IMG/VR virus record: IMGVR_UViG_2974625098_000001
Span: 59,622 to 123,621 of that record
DNA: 64,000 bases
Origin: a virus
Taxonomy: Duplodnaviria > Heunggongvirae > Uroviricota > Caudoviricetes
Direction: 5' to 3' (one strand)
The first letter of the stretch is position 1. Each line of letters opens with the position of its first letter. The position numbers and the translations under genes are program-made. Shown here piece after piece: positions 15,726-28,750 of this stretch. The notes below the pieces were generated by a model. The model did no database searches. It saw nothing but the letters and a program-made list of their open reading frames with translations, and was not told where the DNA came from.

Positions 15726-16018
15726 GGGGTAGCCTGGTTTCGACGTTGATGAATGGTATATAAGCGCAGCCAGTCTTTGAGCAAGAGACTTAAAACAGGT
15801 TCAAAACAATAAATGCTGACAACATTGATGCAGAGTACGAGGCGCTTTGCGCTGAGTACGCACTCGTGACCGTTTGAGTCACCGGGCTTGCGGATGGCCT
15901 AGGAACAGAACAATCCGCTTGTGTAGAACATGCAAAACCCTGTAGTAAATGATGGACATGGCTGTACATCGACTGTATGCTTGAAATGAACGGACAGGGG
16001 TTCGACTCCCCTCTACTC
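15726..16018 (+). ncRNA. ssrA: tmRNA (ssrA)
   Basis: 5' end GGGGTAGCCTGGTTTCGACG matches the tmRNA 5' consensus; 3' tRNA-Ala-like T arm AGGGG-TTCGACT-CCCCT and acceptor CTACTCC pairing GGGGTAG with G3:U70; internal tag reading frame present. Confidence 0.7.
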
Positions 16019-16029
16019 CACGCAATGAG

Positions 16030-19153: not shown

Positions 19154-21076
19154 ATGCGACCGAACACGATTGTTGCTCAGCGCGAAGGTAACCTCGGCGG
19201 CAACGAGCACAAGATGATGTTCGATGAGAACAGCGTTGCGCATCTGATGTCTGTTCTTACGGACCTGTATTCCGACCCCGAGCTGGCTGTAATTCGAGAG
19301 TACAGCACAAACGCTCTCGACTCGCATATTGCGGCGGGTACTGTTCGACCGATTGAGGTCACTACGCCGAATGCGCTCTCTCCATTCTTCAAGGTCAAGG
19401 ATTACGGCCTTGGTATGGATGAGGAAGACATCAAGAATATCTACTCCAAGTACGGTGCTTCTACGAAGCGCGATTCCGACTCGGTTGTGGGTATGCTTGG
19501 CCTCGGCTGCAAGTCGGCACTGACGTACACTCAGCAGTTTACGCTTAACACCGTCAAGAATGGCGTTAAGTACATGGTGGCGGTTTCTCGCACCGAGGAC
19601 GGCTCTGGTGTTATGGAGGTTATCGACTCCTCTCCGACCGACGAGCTGAACAGTGTTGAGGTCGTTGTTCCCGTTAAGCGGGGTAACGAGTTCGAGCGCA
19701 AGTCTCGGGATTTCTTCCGGTTCTGGAAGCCTGGCACGGTCCTGCTTAATGGTGCACAGCCCCAGGGAATCGGTGGCAAGGAAATCGCTCCGGGTGTTTT
19801 TATGGTCCGTGACATTTCCTCTGACTACCTGGTGATGGGCAACGTGGCCTACCCGCTGGACATCGAGCACGCGCTGTCCGACAGTCAGTCGTACTACAAG
19901 CGCTGGGCAATTGTGGCCTACGTCGAAATTGGTTCGGTGAACTTCACGCCTTCGCGTGAGTCGCTGCATTACACCCGACGCACCGAGGCGACTATCCGTG
20001 AGTTCAAGAAGATTGTGGACGAGCGGATTACCAAGGTGGTCCAGGAGGACATTGACTCCAAGGATAGTGAGTGGGACGCTTTCCAGGCGTACTACGAGTG
20101 GAGTGAATTCTTCGGCGGTAATTACGGTGGCAGTCGCTACATGCCGCGCAACGTGGTCTACAAGGGCACCGAGCTGCCGACCGTCTTCCGGGCGGATGGT
20201 ATGCTTTACAACACGAGCGCTTCTCGGTACGCTGTAAGCGATGTCCACAAGATGGACGCTCGCAACGCAGCCAAGACGCCGGTTATCTACGATTACCCGA
20301 GCGAGAAGGTTGCACCTACTCACCGAGAGAAGATGCGAGCCTGGCGCAAGGATAATGCTTCCGACGCCTACCACATCTTTGTCTGTAAGGAGCTGCCGGA
20401 ATTCCCGGACTGGCTTCCCATTCAGACGGTAAAGTGGGAAGACGTTAAGTCCATCAAGATTGTTCGGGAGAAGACTGGCGCTACTCGGTCCAAGCCTCGT
20501 TTCGAGATTTTCTACGACGGCAAGGACCACTACCTGACCAAGGACGAAATCAAGAAGACTGAAATTGTTCTGGTGAAGCCGAAGAACTACATGAGCAATG
20601 CTTCGAAGAAGCAGCTTGAGGCACTTCGGCCGGGTATTGGTATCGTCACTCTGACCGAGAGTCGTTGGGACGCCTTTAAGAAGACGTTCCCGAATGCCAA
20701 GTCCCTTGAGGAAATTCTTCGAGAGCTGGTGGTGGAAGTCAAGGATGCACTGACGAAGGAGGACTTGCTTTTCCTGTCGGTGCGGTGGTACTCTCGTAAC
20801 GTTCTCATCCAGCTTGACCCCAAGCGGATTGACGACCCGACGCTTTCGAATATCGTGACGTTCGTCAAGAGCAGCACGGCATCCGATAATGTCAAGCGTT
20901 ACAACACCTGGCATTCGATTTACAACGACATCACGATTGGCACTATCCTGGACAGGAACGCCACCGTTGACACGGACGTGATGGATAATTACCCTCTGAT
21001 TCGGAACCTCCAGTCCGATTCTCTTGAGGATGCCTACTGTTACATCAATGCGAAGTATGCTACGATGAATAAGTAA
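19154..21076 (+). CDS. rIIA-like protein with N-terminal GHKL (HATPase_c) ATPase domain
   Basis: N box EYSTNALDS, G1 box DYGLGMD, G2 box GMLGLGCKS; 640 aa; a longer antisense ORF overlaps it but lacks motifs. Confidence 0.55.
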   Translation: MRPNTIVAQREGNLGGNEHKMMFDENSVAHLMSVLTDLYSDPELAVIREYSTNALDSHIAAGTVRPIEVTTPNALSPFFKVKDYGLGMDEEDIKNIYSKYGASTKRDSDSVVGMLGLGCKSALTYTQQFTLNTVKNGVKYMVAVSRTEDGSGVMEVIDSSPTDELNSVEVVVPVKRGNEFERKSRDFFRFWKPGTVLLNGAQPQGIGGKEIAPGVFMVRDISSDYLVMGNVAYPLDIEHALSDSQSYYKRWAIVAYVEIGSVNFTPSRESLHYTRRTEATIREFKKIVDERITKVVQEDIDSKDSEWDAFQAYYEWSEFFGGNYGGSRYMPRNVVYKGTELPTVFRADGMLYNTSASRYAVSDVHKMDARNAAKTPVIYDYPSEKVAPTHREKMRAWRKDNASDAYHIFVCKELPEFPDWLPIQTVKWEDVKSIKIVREKTGATRSKPRFEIFYDGKDHYLTKDEIKKTEIVLVKPKNYMSNASKKQLEALRPGIGIVTLTESRWDAFKKTFPNAKSLEEILRELVVEVKDALTKEDLLFLSVRWYSRNVLIQLDPKRIDDPTLSNIVTFVKSSTASDNVKRYNTWHSIYNDITIGTILDRNATVDTDVMDNYPLIRNLQSDSLEDAYCYINAKYATMNK

Positions 21077-21125
21077 GCGATTGGCCCTTCGGGGCCAAGC
21101 TTCCCAACAAGTTCCAATATTTGGA

Positions 21126-22214
21126 GTGGTTAAAATTAAGTACAATCTGGTTAAGTTCCAGGACTCCGACGAGGCGAACCTGACGGTTTTCGTCAACGGG
21201 GAAATGTACGTTGCCACCGACTCGCACCCGAATTTCAAGGCGATTCTCGTTAAGGTCGCTGAGGAGGACGAGAGTGTCGTGGACCTGTTCGATGTAAGCA
21301 AGACCGCTGAGAAGCGATTCGACCGGCTTTCCGAGCGGGTTACCGTTTCGAACGGCCGGATTTACTTCGACGGTGAAGAGGTGGATAACGCGCTGACCTC
21401 TCAGGTGCTCCGTTTTATCGACGGTGGCGTTGAGGACTTCAACCCTCTGGTTAAGTTCTTCGAGAAGGTCATGACCAACCCCAACGAGCACAGCAGGGAA
21501 CAGCTTTACCGCTGGCTGGCTCGTTACGACTTCACCATTACCGATGAGGGTGACTTCATCGCGTACAAGGGTGTTGCTACTGACGCTGAGGGTAACTACG
21601 TCAGTGTTAATCACGGTCGAGCGATTTCGAATGGCGTCGAGTACAATGGTGCTATTCCTAACCCGCTCGGTGCAGTTGTTGAGATGCCTCGTGGCGATGT
21701 TCAGCACGACCCTTCGGTTGGCTGTCACGTCGGTCTGCACGCCGGTACTTACGAGTACGCTAGGCAGTGGGCTAAGGGTGGTCTTCTCACCGTTGTGATT
21801 AATCCTCGCGACGTTGTTTCTGTTCCGACTGACTGTCAGGACCAGAAGTTGCGGGTTTGCCGTTACACGGTTCAGGAGGTCACCGAGGTCAAGTATTCCG
21901 CGCCGGTTATCAGCTTCGATGAAGAGGATGACGAGGACGAGGATGCTTGCTACAATTGTGGTTACGTCGAGTGTGAGTGCTGCGGCGAGTGCGGTTCTGC
22001 GTACTGCTACGACGAAGAGTGCATGGACTGTCCTGACTGTGGCGAGCGTGACTGTGAATGCTGCGAGGCTTGTGAGGCTTTCCCTTGCGAGTGCCCGGAG
22101 CCGCAGACTCCTGCTGCTGACCTTGACGCTTTCGTGAAGGGCATTAACACGGTGGAGGGCTTTAAGCGCGGTTACCTCGGTAACGACTGGCCTGACGCTC
22201 CTTGGAATAAGTAA
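21126..22214 (+). CDS. protein with extreme Cys-rich C-terminal tail; possible rIIB-like partner
   Basis: track ORF 21081-22214; true start likely GTG near 21126 after the hairpin-AAGCTT element; tail CYNCGYVECECCGECGSAYCYDEECMDCPDCGERDCECCEACEAFPCECPEP. Confidence 0.4.
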   Translation: MVKIKYNLVKFQDSDEANLTVFVNGEMYVATDSHPNFKAILVKVAEEDESVVDLFDVSKTAEKRFDRLSERVTVSNGRIYFDGEEVDNALTSQVLRFIDGGVEDFNPLVKFFEKVMTNPNEHSREQLYRWLARYDFTITDEGDFIAYKGVATDAEGNYVSVNHGRAISNGVEYNGAIPNPLGAVVEMPRGDVQHDPSVGCHVGLHAGTYEYARQWAKGGLLTVVINPRDVVSVPTDCQDQKLRVCRYTVQEVTEVKYSAPVISFDEEDDEDEDACYNCGYVECECCGECGSAYCYDEECMDCPDCGERDCECCEACEAFPCECPEPQTPAADLDAFVKGINTVEGFKRGYLGNDWPDAPWNK

Positions 22215-23710: not shown

Positions 23711-23950
23711 ATGTCTCGACTCACTCTCGACTTCAAGGCCGCTCACAAGTTTGTGAATGACCAGCGTCGAATGGGCTCTGACATCCGTTGGGATGGCTAC
23801 GATATCGTTATCTGGAAGCCGACCCACTACGGTTTCACGAACAAGCGTGGGGCTTTCCGCAACGGTCGTTGGGGAATGGAAACCCGCGTGGTCGTCGGTA
23901 ACGACGGTACATGGAAGGTCCCATTCAAGAGTGTCAAGTCTTCTCGATGA
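23711..23950 (+). CDS. hypothetical protein
   Basis: protein-like part of track ORF 23651; ATG 23711. Confidence 0.45.
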   Translation: MSRLTLDFKAAHKFVNDQRRMGSDIRWDGYDIVIWKPTHYGFTNKRGAFRNGRWGMETRVVVGNDGTWKVPFKSVKSSR

Positions 23951-24239
23951 ACTAGGAATTGACCCGGAGAATTTCGAATGGCAAGACCTGGCTCTGTGCG
24001 CTAACATGCCAACCGAGCTGTTCTATGACAAATATGAGTCAGACAGCGAGACAGCAAAGGCCACCGACCAGGCTTGCCTTCGGTGCCCGGTCATGAGACA
24101 ATGTTTTTTCGCCGGGTCCGATGGTGAATATGGAACCTGGGGTGGGGTATACTGGAACGGTGCTGGCAAGCCAGACAAGAACCGTAACTCCCACAAGACC
24201 GAAGAGGTCTGGGTAGAAATTCGTCAGAGGGTGCTATGA
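23931..24239 (+). CDS. WhiB-like (Wbl) Fe-S transcription factor
   Basis: four Cys in C-X29-C-X2-C-X5-C spacing and GTWGGVYW (G[VI]WGG) motif; N-terminal 58 codons of track ORF 23757 are an alternate frame of the previous gene, so start placed at in-frame GTG 23931. Confidence 0.55.
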   Translation: MSSLLDELGIDPENFEWQDLALCANMPTELFYDKYESDSETAKATDQACLRCPVMRQCFFAGSDGEYGTWGGVYWNGAGKPDKNRNSHKTEEVWVEIRQRVL

Positions 24240-27443: not shown

Positions 27444-27529
27444 TGTGTTGCAACCGTCCTTGTATGGTTTCCACCTGGGAGAACGGCAAGTACGTTCTCA
27501 AATGCATTAACTGCAACAAGTGTAGTTGA
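27443..27529 (+). CDS. 28-aa Cys-rich peptide
   Basis: MCCNRPCMVSTWENGKYVLKCINCNKCS; TAATG overlap. Confidence 0.25.
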   Translation: MCCNRPCMVSTWENGKYVLKCINCNKCS

Positions 27530-27555
27530 CACGGCTGAATAATCCGTGCTACTAT
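27526..27555 (+). promoter_or_regulatory. promoter TTGACA-N18-TACTAT
   Basis: consensus -35; good -10; followed by 8-bp hairpin CATCAGGT-CAAC-ACCTGATG. Confidence 0.5.
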
Positions 27556-27585: not shown

Positions 27586-27656
27586 GCGCTATTAGCTCAA
27601 CAGTAGAGCACTAGTCTTCCAAACTAGGGACGCCGGGGCGGCACCGGCATAGCGCT
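27586..27656 (+). tRNA. tRNA-Gly(TCC)-like with non-canonical T loop (possible pseudo-tRNA)
   Basis: perfect acceptor GCGCTAT/ATAGCGC; D arm GCTC-AACAGTA-GAGC; anticodon arm CTAGT-CTTCCAA-ACTAG; T arm GCCGG-GGCGGCA-CCGGC lacks the TTC motif. Confidence 0.35.
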
Positions 27657-27670
27657 CTCTAAACAAAACA

Positions 27671-27703
27671 CCCCGGAGGATTTTCCTCCGGGGTTTCTTA
27701 TTT
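27671..27703 (+). terminator. rho-independent terminator
   Basis: CCCCGGAGG-ATTTT-CCTCCGGGG then TTTCTTATTT. Confidence 0.65.
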
Positions 27704-27712
27704 AGGAGAGTA

Positions 27713-28084
27713 ATGAAGAGGGTATTCTTTCGGCTGGCGAACACTACCCACATGCTGGTCCTGACGATTATCGGTACAATCCTGGTTAGCTCGGTGGTGT
27801 TTTCGCTGACCGAGGGCGTTAGCCTCTTCGATGGTGTATACTGGTCTGTAGTGACCATGAGTACGACGGGTTATGGGGACCTGAGCCCAGAATCTATCGT
27901 CGGCAAGGCGTACACCATGCTTCTCATGCTCTGGTCCGTGTTCTTCCTGGTTCCCAGTGCGGTTGCTCAAATCATTATGAAGTTCATCCATAACCGAAAT
28001 GAGTTCACCCACGAGGAGCAGGAGAAGATTATGCAGCAGCAGAAGCGCATCATTGAGCTGCTAGAAGGAGGAAAGAGTGAATGA
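27713..28084 (+). CDS. minimal potassium channel (2TM plus pore; Kcv-like)
   Basis: K+ selectivity filter VVTMSTTGYGDLSP between two TM helices; 123 aa. Confidence 0.7.
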   Translation: MKRVFFRLANTTHMLVLTIIGTILVSSVVFSLTEGVSLFDGVYWSVVTMSTTGYGDLSPESIVGKAYTMLLMLWSVFFLVPSAVAQIIMKFIHNRNEFTHEEQEKIMQQQKRIIELLEGGKSE

Positions 28085-28274
28085 GATTGAGGCGTACTGC
28101 TTCGACGTTCAGATTTATGTGAACGAGTTCGGGAAGTACGAGTACGGCGTGTCTCAGGAATTTGAAATTGATGGTGAAGAACAGTGGGAGTTGCTTGAAT
28201 CTGGCTCGGCAGATACTTTGGCTGAGGCCGCGCAGATGGCTAGTAACAGCATTCGCACACTGTTCCCGGCGTAA
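28077..28274 (+). CDS. hypothetical acidic protein
   Basis: track ORF. Confidence 0.45.
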   Translation: MNEIEAYCFDVQIYVNEFGKYEYGVSQEFEIDGEEQWELLESGSADTLAEAAQMASNSIRTLFPA

Positions 28275-28387: not shown

Positions 28388-28750
28388 GTGCTAACTGATA
28401 ATCTATACTGGTACCGAATCAAGGAGTTCCTTTACAACCACGATGGTGATACACTCAAGGTGGTTGTGGACATGGGTATGCGTGTCTGTCGTGAGGTGAC
28501 GTTGCGAGCCGAGGGAATTAACTCCCCCGAGCTTCGTGGCGACACGCTCGAAAAGGCGCGGGTTTCCCGTGATGCCGCTAAGGAATGGTTCACTAAGCCT
28601 GGCAGAAAGCTGGTCGTCAAGACATACCTTGACCCCGGCAGCTATGACAGGTACACGGCCGAAATCTTTGACGCCGAAACCGAAGAGTGCTTTAATAAGT
28701 TCATGGTGGATAGCGGTTTCGCTGACACCTACGTCTATAAGTGGGGCTAA
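28388..28750 (+). CDS. thermonuclease (SNase-like)
   Basis: NHDGDTL ... RAEGINSPELRGDT ... SNase-like calcium-site and catalytic motifs; GTG start abuts tRNA-Gln. Confidence 0.55.
   Translation: MLTDNLYWYRIKEFLYNHDGDTLKVVVDMGMRVCREVTLRAEGINSPELRGDTLEKARVSRDAAKEWFTKPGRKLVVKTYLDPGSYDRYTAEIFDAETEECFNKFMVDSGFADTYVYKWG

What the first reader, a model, noticed from the sequence alone, without database searches (positions are those of the whole stretch)
27713..28084. Phage-encoded minimal K+ channel with canonical TTGYGD selectivity filter
The 123-aa protein has two TM helices flanking a pore helix and the signature TMSTTGYGDL, the hallmark of K+-selective channels and reminiscent of chlorovirus Kcv. 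Viral K+ channels are rare in bacteriophages. It could depolarise the host for DNA entry, superinfection exclusion or lysis timing.
Basis: partly seen in the sequence, partly recalled or inferred. Interest (0 to 1): 0.7.

Follow-up and report, generated by a model that had tools for sequence, protein, structure and literature searches.

The report
Known phage mini potassium channel gene
This is a real, conserved gene of Streptomyces phage BillNye for a 123-residue pore-only potassium-channel subunit, but the same protein was already reported as a phage K+ channel in 2018, and what it does during infection is still untested.

Summary
Window 27713-28084 (+) encodes a 123-aa protein with two hydrophobic helices, a pore helix and TMSTTGYGDL. 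It matches Pfam Ion_trans_2 (E 1.5e-13). Its AlphaFold model (pLDDT 89) superposes best on NaK2K and MthK pores.

The window is Streptomyces phage BillNye (100% identity). This exact protein (AVD99322.1) is listed as a phage K+ channel in Greiner et al. 2018 (Viruses 10:456), so the finding is a rediscovery. RefSeq and PHROG call it "cAMP-dependent Kef-type K+ transporter", which the domain content does not support.

New here:
- The gene is under strong purifying selection (dN/dS 0.07-0.13).
- It is a precisely bounded cassette, absent from the same site in the related phages Ankus and Byblos.
- It lies behind a host-type promoter, a tRNA-Gly and a strong hairpin.
- It belongs to a large subfamily of cellular and phage mini-channels with an invariant post-TM2 motif (F-T-H-E-E-Q) and a coiled-coil tail. 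No solved structure or searchable paper covers that motif.

Most likely it forms a tetrameric K+ pore in the host membrane early in infection, as a dispensable fitness gene. A Kcv-like role in DNA entry is unlikely. No bacteriophage K+ channel was found to have been tested functionally.

The parts
27526..27555 (+). Sigma-70-like promoter (TTGACA-18 nt-TACTAT, TG before the -10) heading the unit tRNA-Gly / channel / gp110
   Evidence: TTGACA and the -10 region are conserved in Muntaha, Wakanda, Ankus and Byblos. It is one of 20 such sites on the + strand of the window against 2 on the - strand. Function as a promoter is inferred.
27586..27657 (+). tRNA-Gly(UCC) with an aberrant T-loop (GGCGGCA instead of UUCGAAU)
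   Evidence: Annotated in RefSeq. Rfam tRNA 53.7 bits at 27586-27656. Missed by ARAGORN in BillNye but found at the same site in the relatives.
27670..27704 (+). Strong G+C-rich hairpin (11 pairs) plus T-run, terminator-like, between the tRNA and the channel start
   Evidence: Free energy -23.9 kcal/mol, z -4.3. A hairpin plus T-run is kept at this place in Muntaha, Wakanda, the metagenomic relative L006, Byblos and Ankus, with a different stem sequence in L006 and Byblos. It is therefore not specific to the channel gene.
27704..27709 (+). Ribosome-binding site AGGAGA
   Evidence: Read directly from the sequence.
27713..28084 (+). CDS of the 123-aa K+ channel subunit (BillNye gp111, YP_009622698.1 / AVD99322.1)
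27752..27811 (+). Outer transmembrane helix TM1 (residues 14-33)
   Evidence: Hydropathy; AF2 helix 12-34.
27824..27859 (+). Pore helix (residues 38-49, including Y43 and W44 of the aromatic cuff)
   Evidence: AF2 helix 38-49. W44 and T48 are invariant in 44 relatives.
27863..27880 (+). Selectivity filter T51-T52-G53-Y54-G55-D56
   Evidence: G53, Y54, G55 and D56 are invariant. It aligns to the TVGYGD of NaK2K.
27896..28000 (+). Inner helix TM2 (residues 62-96) with family-invariant P81. S75 sits where NaK has its hinge glycine.
   Evidence: AF2 helix 62-96. P81 is invariant. The NaK alignment ends S75 opposite Gly. The hinge role is inferred.
27992..28021 (+). Family signature N-R-N-E-F-T-H-E-E-Q (residues 94-103) at the break between TM2 and the C-terminal helix
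   Evidence: H100, E102 and Q103 are invariant in 44 of 44 sequences, and F/W98 and T/S99 are nearly so. The motif is outside the Pfam match, which covers residues 19-80. It has no counterpart in the PDB by sequence.
28010..28078 (+). Cytoplasmic C-terminal helix (residues 100-122), probably a tetramerising coiled coil
   Evidence: AF2 helix 100-122. Family hydrophobic positions 106/110/113/117 have 4-3-4 spacing. The profile's only, weak, PDB matches are designed coiled coils, several of them tetrameric. Inference.
28077..28274 (+). Downstream 65-aa acidic gene (gp110). Its GTG start overlaps the channel stop (GTGAATGA). Same transcription unit, not a channel-specific partner.
   Evidence: It is present directly after the hairpin and RBS in Ankus and Byblos, which lack the channel. 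No PHROG, NCBIfam or PADLOC match.

Best explanation
The gene encodes a subunit of a pore-only K+ channel. Its parts are a short N-terminal interfacial helix, TM1, a pore helix, the filter TTGYGD, TM2, and a cytoplasmic tail.

Four copies are expected to assemble around a central pore. The C-terminal helices would form a parallel four-helix coiled coil. The invariant H100/E102/Q103 ring would sit just below the TM2 bundle crossing, where it probably acts as the cytoplasmic gate or sensor for pH or a cation. This would be analogous in position to the KcsA pH sensor.

The gene is transcribed by host RNA polymerase from a sigma-70-type promoter in the non-structural, tRNA-rich part of the genome. 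Transcription must read through or be processed at the tRNA-Gly and hairpin. The protein then inserts into the host cytoplasmic membrane after infection and adds a phage-controlled K+ conductance. That conductance pulls the membrane potential towards E_K and lets K+ move down its gradient. The likely benefit is stabilising membrane potential and cytoplasmic K+ during the latent period.

It is a dispensable accessory gene that is nevertheless kept by selection.

Shown: homology, fold, conservation, selection, cassette structure, genomic setting. Inferred: tetramer, K+ selectivity, gating role of the motif, timing of expression, physiological role.
For: Identity of the window and prior report: 100% identical to BillNye. 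The protein is named as a K+ channel gene in Greiner et al. 2018.

Family and fold:
- Pfam Ion_trans_2 E 1.5e-13, above the cut-off; PHROG 14690 full length at 4.5e-54.
- Best PDB sequence matches are NaK2K, NaK, MthK and Kv pores.
- AF2 model pLDDT 89.1 with the expected helices.
- Foldseek top hits are NaK2K/MthK pores, probability 1.00.
- BFVD hits are another phage channel, Kesv and an 82-aa viral protein (rmsd 1.7 A over 77 columns).

Topology: two hydropathy peaks and charge distribution fit N-in/C-in.

Functional constraint:
- dN/dS 0.07-0.13 at dS 0.8-1.25 against Muntaha, Wakanda and a metagenomic relative.
- Invariant E34, W44, T48, G53, Y54, G55, D56, P59, G64, P81, H100, E102 and Q103 in 44 diverse relatives.

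Tail: heptad-like hydrophobic positions and weak coiled-coil-only PDB matches.

Expression context: promoter-like site, tRNA and hairpin are conserved upstream. There are 20 such promoters on the + strand against 2 on the - strand.

Accessory status: exact cassette indel relative to Ankus and Byblos. Ankus is BillNye's closest relative.

Not a recent import: GC and GC3 are like the neighbouring genes.

The family is real and cellular as well as viral: 6441 cluster representatives at E<=1e-3. Chromosomal members have ordinary cellular neighbours.
Against: - No experiment exists for this or, as far as the searchable literature shows, for any bacteriophage K+ channel.
- The tetramer could not be modelled with the tools available.
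- Thr52 in place of Val/Ile is the substitution that in TWIK-1 goes with unstable K+ selectivity.
- The classical glycine hinge is Ser75 here, so gating may differ.
- A strong terminator-like hairpin lies 9 nt before the RBS, so expression may be low or conditional.
- Close relatives do without the gene, so any benefit is conditional.
- The direction of K+ flux, and hence the physiological effect, depends on external K+ and cannot be deduced from sequence.
Confidence: 0.75

Rival explanations
1. Same channel, but its selected role is superinfection exclusion or control of lysis timing. By shifting membrane potential it would block DNA injection by later phages or tune holin triggering.
For: Chlorovirus Kcv is credited with excluding later infections (paper text). 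The gene is expressed from an early-type promoter context. It is accessory, as exclusion genes often are. rIIA/rIIB genes lie about 6 kb upstream.
Against: There is no direct evidence. The gene is not in or next to a lysis cassette. In IMG/VR the motif-bearing mini-channels were never beside an integrase or repressor, which is where prophage exclusion genes typically sit (0 of 17). A K+ pore tends to hold the potential at E_K rather than collapse it (inference).
Confidence: 0.2
2. Kcv-like entry device: the channel is carried in the virion and inserted into the host membrane at infection, releasing K+ and lowering turgor to allow DNA ejection.
For: Only the analogy with chloroviruses and the shared pore fold.
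Against: BillNye is a tailed siphovirus of the Stanwilliamsviridae with no internal membrane. The gene lies among small non-structural genes and tRNAs. The closest relative infects Streptomyces without it.
Confidence: 0.03
3. It is a weakly selective or dynamically selective monovalent cation channel rather than a strict K+ channel, because of Thr at filter position 2. It would then leak Na+ and depolarise the cell.
For: The TTGYG filter of TWIK-1 is tied to reduced, switchable K+ over Na+ selectivity, and T118I stabilises the K+-selective state. TTGYGD and STGYGD are minority forms in the family.
Against: In a K+ channel filter the ion-binding sites are formed by the backbone carbonyls and the Thr51 hydroxyl (established structural knowledge), and these positions (T51, G53-Y54-G55, D56) are intact here. 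The aromatic cuff (Y43, W44, Y54) and D56 are kept. In TWIK-1 the second pore loop is also aberrant (TIGLG), so the effect cannot be assigned to Thr alone.
Confidence: 0.15
4. It is what RefSeq and PHROG call it: a cAMP-dependent Kef-type K+ transporter.
For: Only the database label.
Against: The protein is 123 aa with two TM helices. Pfam finds only Ion_trans_2 and Ion_trans; it finds no Na_H_Exchanger (CPA2) domain, no TrkA/RCK domain and no cNMP-binding domain. NCBIfam gives only sub-threshold matches to voltage-gated K+ channel models. The original GenBank record says hypothetical protein.
Confidence: 0.01
5. The phage subunit does not work alone. It co-assembles with a host K+ channel subunit to alter or poison the host's own conductance.
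For: K+ channels are tetramers that can form heteromers (general knowledge). Related chromosomal genes exist in Actinomycetota.
Against: No full-length Streptomyces member appeared among the 80 best of 524 genome loci. The phage protein keeps every feature needed for an autonomous pore plus its own oligomerising tail.
Confidence: 0.05

Closest known systems
Other bacteriophage mini K+ channels of PHROG 14690 (Acinetobacter phage vB_AbaM_ME3, Aeromonas phages LAh_6/8/9, Pseudomonas phages ventosus and phiK7A1, Mycobacterium phages Myrna and Phabba), as surveyed by Greiner et al. 2018
   Same: Same length class (about 117-126 aa) and 2TM-pore architecture, with 27-42% identity over nearly the full length. 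All fall in the same PHROG. The F-T-H-E-E-Q tail motif was confirmed in the ME3 locus (L010, FTHEEQ) and not checked in the other named phages. BillNye itself is in that survey.
   Different: BillNye and its three relatives (Circinus, Wakanda, Muntaha) are the only Streptomyces phages with the gene in the collection searched. They carry TTGYGD rather than the commoner TVGYGD or TIGYGD.
NaK / NaK2K (Bacillus cereus) and the MthK pore: closest solved structures
   Same: Best sequence and fold matches: phmmer E 1e-10 over residues 14-75; Foldseek probability 1.00, 28-31% identity, TM-score about 0.67 normalised to the target. Same M1, pore helix, filter and M2 layout. NaK2K has the filter TVGYGD.
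   Different: The C-terminal segment alone (residues 79-123, including the F-T-H-E-E-Q motif and coiled-coil tail) matched no PDB sequence, so these structures have no counterpart to it. The NaK hinge glycine is Ser75 here, and the family has an invariant Pro81. MthK additionally has RCK gating rings.
KcsA of Streptomyces lividans (the host genus's classic K+ channel)
   Same: 2TM pore-only channel with a cytoplasmic C-terminal helical bundle and a charged sensor cluster at the bundle crossing. The filter region aligns.
   Different: Only 28% identity over 80 residues (KcsA sequence from memory), and it is not among the 60 best PDB matches. The phage gene is not a copy of the host channel. The tail motif differs.
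Chlorovirus Kcv (PBCV-1) and other algal-virus K+ channels (Kesv, TetV)
   Same: Virus-encoded, miniature, pore-only K+ channel. The fold matches predicted structures of Kesv (EsV-1-223), the TetV channel and an unnamed 82-aa viral protein in BFVD.
   Different: Sequence similarity is limited to about 41 residues around the filter (Kcv sequence from memory). Kcv has essentially no cytoplasmic C-terminus. Kcv works from the virion's internal membrane at entry, which a tailed phage lacks.
Temperate-phage 4-TM K+ channel proteins (Lactobacillus phage PLE type, about 250-300 aa)
   Same: Phage-borne with a TVGYGD pore. Found by the same search.
   Different: These are longer, with an Arg/Lys-rich S4-like segment, and lack the F-T-H-E-E-Q motif. 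In IMG/VR, 42 loci place them beside an integrase or recombinase, nearly always with an HTH repressor as well. None of the 17 motif-type loci do. This is a different family and a different lifestyle context.

Membership tests
Tetrameric pore-loop K+ channels (Pfam Ion_trans_2, PF07885) | Profile match above the curated threshold | tested here: met
   50.9 bits against a cut-off of 22.5, E 1.5e-13, residues 19-80.
Tetrameric pore-loop K+ channels (Pfam Ion_trans_2, PF07885) | Two transmembrane helices flanking a re-entrant pore helix | tested here: met
   Hydropathy peaks near residues 23 and 79. AF2 helices 12-34, 38-49 and 62-96 at pLDDT 86-98. Fold matches to NaK2K/MthK pores.
Tetrameric pore-loop K+ channels (Pfam Ion_trans_2, PF07885) | Signature filter T-x-G-Y/F-G-(D), with the aromatic pair in the pore helix | tested here: met
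   T51-T52-G53-Y54-G55-D56, with Y43 and W44 upstream. The G-Y-G-D residues are invariant in relatives. Position 2 is Thr, a minority variant.
Tetrameric pore-loop K+ channels (Pfam Ion_trans_2, PF07885) | Assembly as a tetramer around a central pore | not testable with these tools
   Only single-chain prediction was available. The coiled-coil-like tail is indirect support.
Tetrameric pore-loop K+ channels (Pfam Ion_trans_2, PF07885) | K+-selective conduction | not testable with these tools
   Needs electrophysiology or complementation. No such data were found for any bacteriophage channel.
Phage/prokaryote mini K+ channels with the F-T-H-E-E-Q tail (PHROG 14690; subfamily delimited here) | Full-length match to the family profile | tested here: met
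   PHROG 14690 E 4.5e-54, residues 2-123 on profile positions 1-122 of 122. Profile search E 8.7e-45.
Phage/prokaryote mini K+ channels with the F-T-H-E-E-Q tail (PHROG 14690; subfamily delimited here) | Invariant P81 in TM2 and the [FW]-[TS]-H-[ED]-E-Q motif about 44 residues after the filter, followed by a heptad-patterned helix | tested here: met
   F98-T99-H100-E101-E102-Q103 is present. P81, H100, E102 and Q103 are invariant in 44 sequences. Of 121 profile hits, 115 carry the motif.
Chlorovirus Kcv family | Specific sequence relationship beyond the generic pore signature | tested here: not met
   BLASTP gives 39% over 41 residues, filter region only (Kcv sequence from memory). Prokaryotic pores score better.
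Chlorovirus Kcv family | Pore module with no cytoplasmic C-terminal domain | tested here: not met
   A 30-residue conserved helical tail, residues 93-123.
Chlorovirus Kcv family | Located in an internal virion membrane and acting at entry | not testable with these tools
   Unlikely by inference: a tailed phage with no membrane and a non-structural gene block. Virion proteomics would settle it.
Kef-type (CPA2) K+ efflux system, cAMP-dependent (the RefSeq/PHROG label) | CPA2 Na_H_Exchanger membrane domain of about 12-13 TM helices | tested here: not met
   123 aa with two TM helices. No such Pfam match, even at E<=1.
Kef-type (CPA2) K+ efflux system, cAMP-dependent (the RefSeq/PHROG label) | KTN/RCK (TrkA_N) regulatory domain or a cyclic-nucleotide-binding domain | tested here: not met
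   None found by Pfam or NCBIfam.
Anti-phage defence effectors (PADLOC) | Match to any defence-system protein model | tested here: not met
   No PADLOC families at E<=1 for the channel or for gp110.

The most novel reading that the evidence does not exclude
The F-T-H-E-E-Q mini-channels are an uncharacterised, widespread K+ channel subfamily of bacteria and virulent phages. Their invariant His/Glu/Gln ring below the bundle crossing would be a new cytoplasmic gating sensor, for pH or a metal ion. Virulent phages such as BillNye would deploy the channel early to clamp membrane potential near E_K. That would protect the infection against depolarising abortive-infection effectors or against K+ loss. 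This would be a membrane-potential counter-defence, and the first assigned role for a bacteriophage K+ channel.
Probability: 0.12. Interest if true: 0.65.

Novelty: already known. Interest (0 to 1): 0.3.

Why it matters
As submitted, the finding adds nothing to the record. The gene is in a published survey of viral transport proteins, and UniProt names it a potassium-channel-domain protein.

The remaining value lies in three places:
- No bacteriophage K+ channel appears to have been tested, either for conduction or for a role in infection. BillNye offers a tractable system: a plaque-forming lytic phage, a genetically workable host genus that also gave us KcsA, and natural channel-less relatives with an otherwise identical locus.
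- The subfamily's invariant post-TM2 motif is an unstudied candidate gating element in a 120-residue protein, a convenient size for structural and biophysical work.
- The RefSeq/PHROG product name is wrong and is being propagated across phage genomes.

Tried and rejected
- A word-indexed protein search with the single sequence gave only 6 hits. The exhaustive HMMER search was needed to see the family.
- The first genome scan with the 41-sequence alignment failed for lack of a conserved stretch. A tighter alignment worked.
- I looked for a solved structure covering the C-terminal motif. A single-sequence search gave nothing. A profile search gave only non-significant designed coiled coils.
- A full-text search for the motif strings (FTHEEQ and variants) gave only irrelevant hits.
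- PADLOC gave no hit. NCBIfam gave only sub-threshold hits.
- I looked for a conserved partner gene. gp110 is present with or without the channel and has no family match. Clustering the neighbours in 80 viral loci gave no recurrent neighbour for the motif-type channels.
- I considered recent horizontal acquisition. GC and GC3 match the neighbours, and divergence between orthologues is like that of flanking genes, so I rejected it.
- I considered derivation from the host's KcsA and rejected it.
- I considered that the overlapping minus-strand ORFs (27698-28012, 27592-27858) might be the real genes. The profile hits and dN/dS on the + frame rule this out.
- Searches for functional work on bacteriophage K+ channels found none. 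The origin of the 'Kef-type' label could not be traced.

Full report
**What the window is.** A 4-kb stretch around the finding is 100% identical to Streptomyces phage BillNye (NC_042105.1 / MG757153.1), a 127-kb lytic siphovirus of the Stanwilliamsviridae, genus Wilnyevirus. Window coordinate equals record coordinate minus 59,621. The ORF is gp111 (YP_009622698.1; GenBank AVD99322.1, SEA_BILLNYE_148).

**The observation.**
- The ORF 27713..28084 (+) encodes 123 residues, preceded by AGGAGA at 27704-27709.
- Pfam Ion_trans_2 matches residues 19-80 at E 1.5e-13, 50.9 bits against a cut-off of 22.5.
- Hydropathy gives two membrane-spanning peaks. The charge distribution (N-terminus +3; pore loop with no K/R and four acidic residues) fits N-in/C-in.
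- An AlphaFold2 model built on 44 relatives has mean pLDDT 89.1. Its helices are at 2-10, 12-34, 38-49, 62-96 and 100-122.
- Foldseek against the PDB returns NaK2K, NaK and MthK pores at the top, probability 1.00. phmmer against PDB sequences gives the same proteins.
- Against predicted viral structures, the best hits are another phage channel, Ectocarpus virus Kesv and an unnamed 82-aa viral protein.

One qualification: the filter has Thr rather than Val/Ile at its second position. That is a minority state among relatives (17 TTGYGD against 83 TVGYGD of 121). In TWIK-1 the same TTGYG is described as non-canonical and tied to dynamic selectivity.

[quoted passage not shown] They give a Pararheinheimera protein as the nearest cellular relative at 34% identity. 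They list comparable genes in Mycobacterium, Vibrio, Acinetobacter, Pseudomonas and Lactobacillus phages. They give no functional data for any phage channel, and they discuss possible roles only as speculation. I found no later functional study. UniProt calls the protein 'Potassium channel domain...'. RefSeq and PHROG 14690 call it 'cAMP-dependent Kef-type K+ transporter'. The domain content contradicts that name: there is no CPA2, RCK or cyclic-nucleotide domain in a 123-residue protein.

**Is it a working gene?** Orthologues exist in Circinus (identical), Muntaha and Wakanda (87-88% identity), and a soil metagenome contig with the same gene order (80%). Pairwise dN/dS is 0.07-0.13 at dS 0.8-1.25, which is strong purifying selection. 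GC and GC3 are like those of the neighbours.

**Cassette structure and dispensability.** In Ankus and Byblos the same locus reads promoter, tRNA-Gly, hairpin, RBS, gp110. In BillNye, Muntaha, Wakanda and the metagenomic relative, the channel ORF lies exactly between the RBS and the gp110 start, and nothing else differs. Ankus is reported as the closest relative of BillNye and Circinus, while the more distant Wakandavirus genus has the gene. Loss in the Ankus line, or exchange by recombination, is therefore more likely than recent gain in BillNye. Either way, the phage type can infect Streptomyces without it.

**Expression context.**
- A sigma-70-like site (TTGACA-18-TACTAT, with TG) lies at 27526-27555.
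- Twenty such sites occur on the + strand of the window and two on the - strand, many just ahead of tRNA genes. This is the pattern expected for host-polymerase transcription of an early or non-structural region (inference).
- Between the promoter and the channel lie a tRNA-Gly(UCC) and an 11-bp G+C hairpin with a T-run (-23.9 kcal/mol, z -4.3).
- The hairpin is kept in all relatives, including those without the channel. It belongs to the tRNA unit and may limit read-through into whatever gene follows.
- The next gene (gp110, 65 aa, acidic) overlaps the channel stop codon but is not a channel-specific partner.

**The family.**
- An exhaustive HMMER search of 1.84 billion cluster representatives finds 6441 proteins at E<=1e-3 and 499 at E<=1e-10. 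Only one is closer than about 50% identity.
- Many hits are single-pore proteins of 110-170 residues.
- Aligning 44 of them shows, besides the filter, invariant E34, W44, T48, P59, G64 and P81, and a motif after TM2: [DN]-R-[DN]-x-[FW]-[TS]-H-[ED]-E-Q, with H100, E102 and Q103 invariant.
- The motif is outside the Pfam domain. It sits at the break between TM2 and the last helix in the model.
- It is followed by hydrophobic positions at 106/110/113/117, a 4-3-4 spacing typical of a coiled coil.
- Neither the sequence nor a profile of this tail finds a solved structure; only weak matches to designed coiled coils appear. The motif strings do not occur in the searchable literature.
- By position the motif corresponds to the charged cluster at the KcsA bundle crossing (alignment). 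My reading of it as a gate or sensor is an inference.

**Cellular and viral distribution.**
- A 46%-identical relative lies on a 375-kb contig among ordinary cellular genes.
- In species-representative genomes, the best full-length matches are in Micromonosporaceae (Couchioplanes, Actinoplanes, Micromonospora, Phytohabitans) at 33-39% identity.
- In one complete Micromonospora chromosome the neighbours are ABC-transporter ATPases, a hydrolase and a DNA ligase.
- No full-length Streptomyces member was among the 80 loci shown out of 524, so presence in the host genus is undetermined.
- KcsA is only 28% identical over 80 residues (sequence from memory).
- In IMG/VR, 228 stretches encode relatives.
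- Among the 80 best IMG/VR loci, the 17 motif-type mini-channels, several on jumbo-size contigs, never lie beside an integrase. A different 250-300-residue TVGYGD protein with an S4-like segment lies beside an integrase or recombinase in 42 loci, nearly always with an HTH repressor as well.
- BillNye's gene belongs to the first, virulent-phage type.

**Mechanism.** I conclude the protein is a subunit of a tetrameric K+ pore made after infection and inserted in the host membrane. A virion-borne, Kcv-style entry role is very unlikely for a membrane-less tailed phage with this gene placement.

A K+-selective conductance drives the membrane towards E_K. In a K+-rich cell in dilute soil water this is strongly negative. 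The default effect is therefore to stabilise or hyperpolarise and to permit K+ movement, not to depolarise. This follows from established electrochemistry and was not tested.

The selected benefit is probably conditional, given the losses in relatives. The candidates are maintaining potential and K+ during the latent period, countering depolarising host defences, exclusion of other phages, or lysis timing. None can be ranked firmly from sequence.

**Verdict.** The feature is real and its molecular identity is correct, but it is already published and annotated. Interest is low to moderate. It rests on the absence of any functional test of a bacteriophage K+ channel and on the uncharacterised conserved tail motif.

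Noticed in passing
window 27992-28021 (residues 94-103), and relatives P0002-P0266: An invariant post-TM2 motif [DN]R[DN]x[FW][TS]H[ED]EQ plus a heptad-patterned tail defines a large subfamily of 110-170-aa K+ channels in bacteria and phages. Pfam does not cover it, it has no PDB counterpart, and it is not in the searchable literature.
   Followed up: partly
window 27586-27657: The tRNA-Gly(UCC) of BillNye has a T-loop GGCGGCA instead of the near-universal UUCGAAU. ARAGORN misses it, while Rfam still scores it at 53.7 bits. The orthologous tRNAs in Muntaha, Byblos, Ankus and L006 have a normal T-loop. It may be a decaying or atypical tRNA.
   Followed up: partly
window 27670-27704; L002-L006 equivalents: A strong terminator-like hairpin directly after tRNA-Gly is conserved in structure in all relatives, with a different stem sequence in L006 and Byblos. 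It is followed within about 10 nt by the RBS of the next gene, so the downstream genes depend on read-through or processing.
   Followed up: partly
window 2489-56208, + strand: There are twenty TTGAC[AT]-N16-19-TAnn[AT]T promoter-like sites on the + strand against two on the - strand. Many lie 30-60 nt ahead of tRNA genes or tRNA clusters (for example 6767, 8063, 10788, 13190, 13417, 16502, 26046, 27526, 33570).
   Followed up: partly
window 6832-49942: ARAGORN finds 29 tRNA genes and a tmRNA gene (15726-16021, tag ADNIDAEYEALCAEYALVTV), all on the + strand. This is a large phage-borne translation set.
   Followed up: no
window about 19154-22214 (record 78775-81835) and about 23931-24239: Genes annotated rIIA and rIIB lysis inhibitors lie about 6 kb upstream of the channel gene, and a WhiB-like regulator about 3.5 kb upstream. 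In T4, rII proteins are membrane-associated and counter a depolarising exclusion system. Whether there is any link with the channel is unknown.
   Followed up: no
IMG/VR loci L031-L089: A different phage K+ channel type (about 250-300 aa, TVGYGD or SVGYGD, with an Arg/Lys-rich S4-like segment and no FTHEEQ motif) sits next to an integrase or serine recombinase in 42 temperate-phage loci, nearly always with an HTH repressor as well. This suggests a lysogenic-conversion or exclusion gene.
   Followed up: partly
RefSeq NC_042105.1, NC_070785.1, NC_070786.1, NC_041884.1, NC_048773-6, NC_011273.1, NC_054714.1: The product name 'cAMP-dependent Kef-type K+ transporter' (from PHROG 14690) is applied to all these 2TM mini-channels, although none of the implied domains is present. 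It is a propagating mis-annotation.
   Followed up: yes
PMC6163359, section 3.1.1: The 2018 survey reports a gammaproteobacterial protein (34% identity) as the nearest cellular relative and questions the Streptomyces host. Larger databases now hold closer relatives: 50% and 46% identity in metagenomes, the latter on a cellular contig, and 33-39% in Micromonosporaceae chromosomes.
   Followed up: partly
window 28388-28750: The gene after tRNA-Gln is a conserved small nuclease (PHROG 452; weak SNase Pfam hit in the metagenomic relative), about 91% identical in protein across all the relatives compared. It is much more conserved than its neighbours.
   Followed up: no
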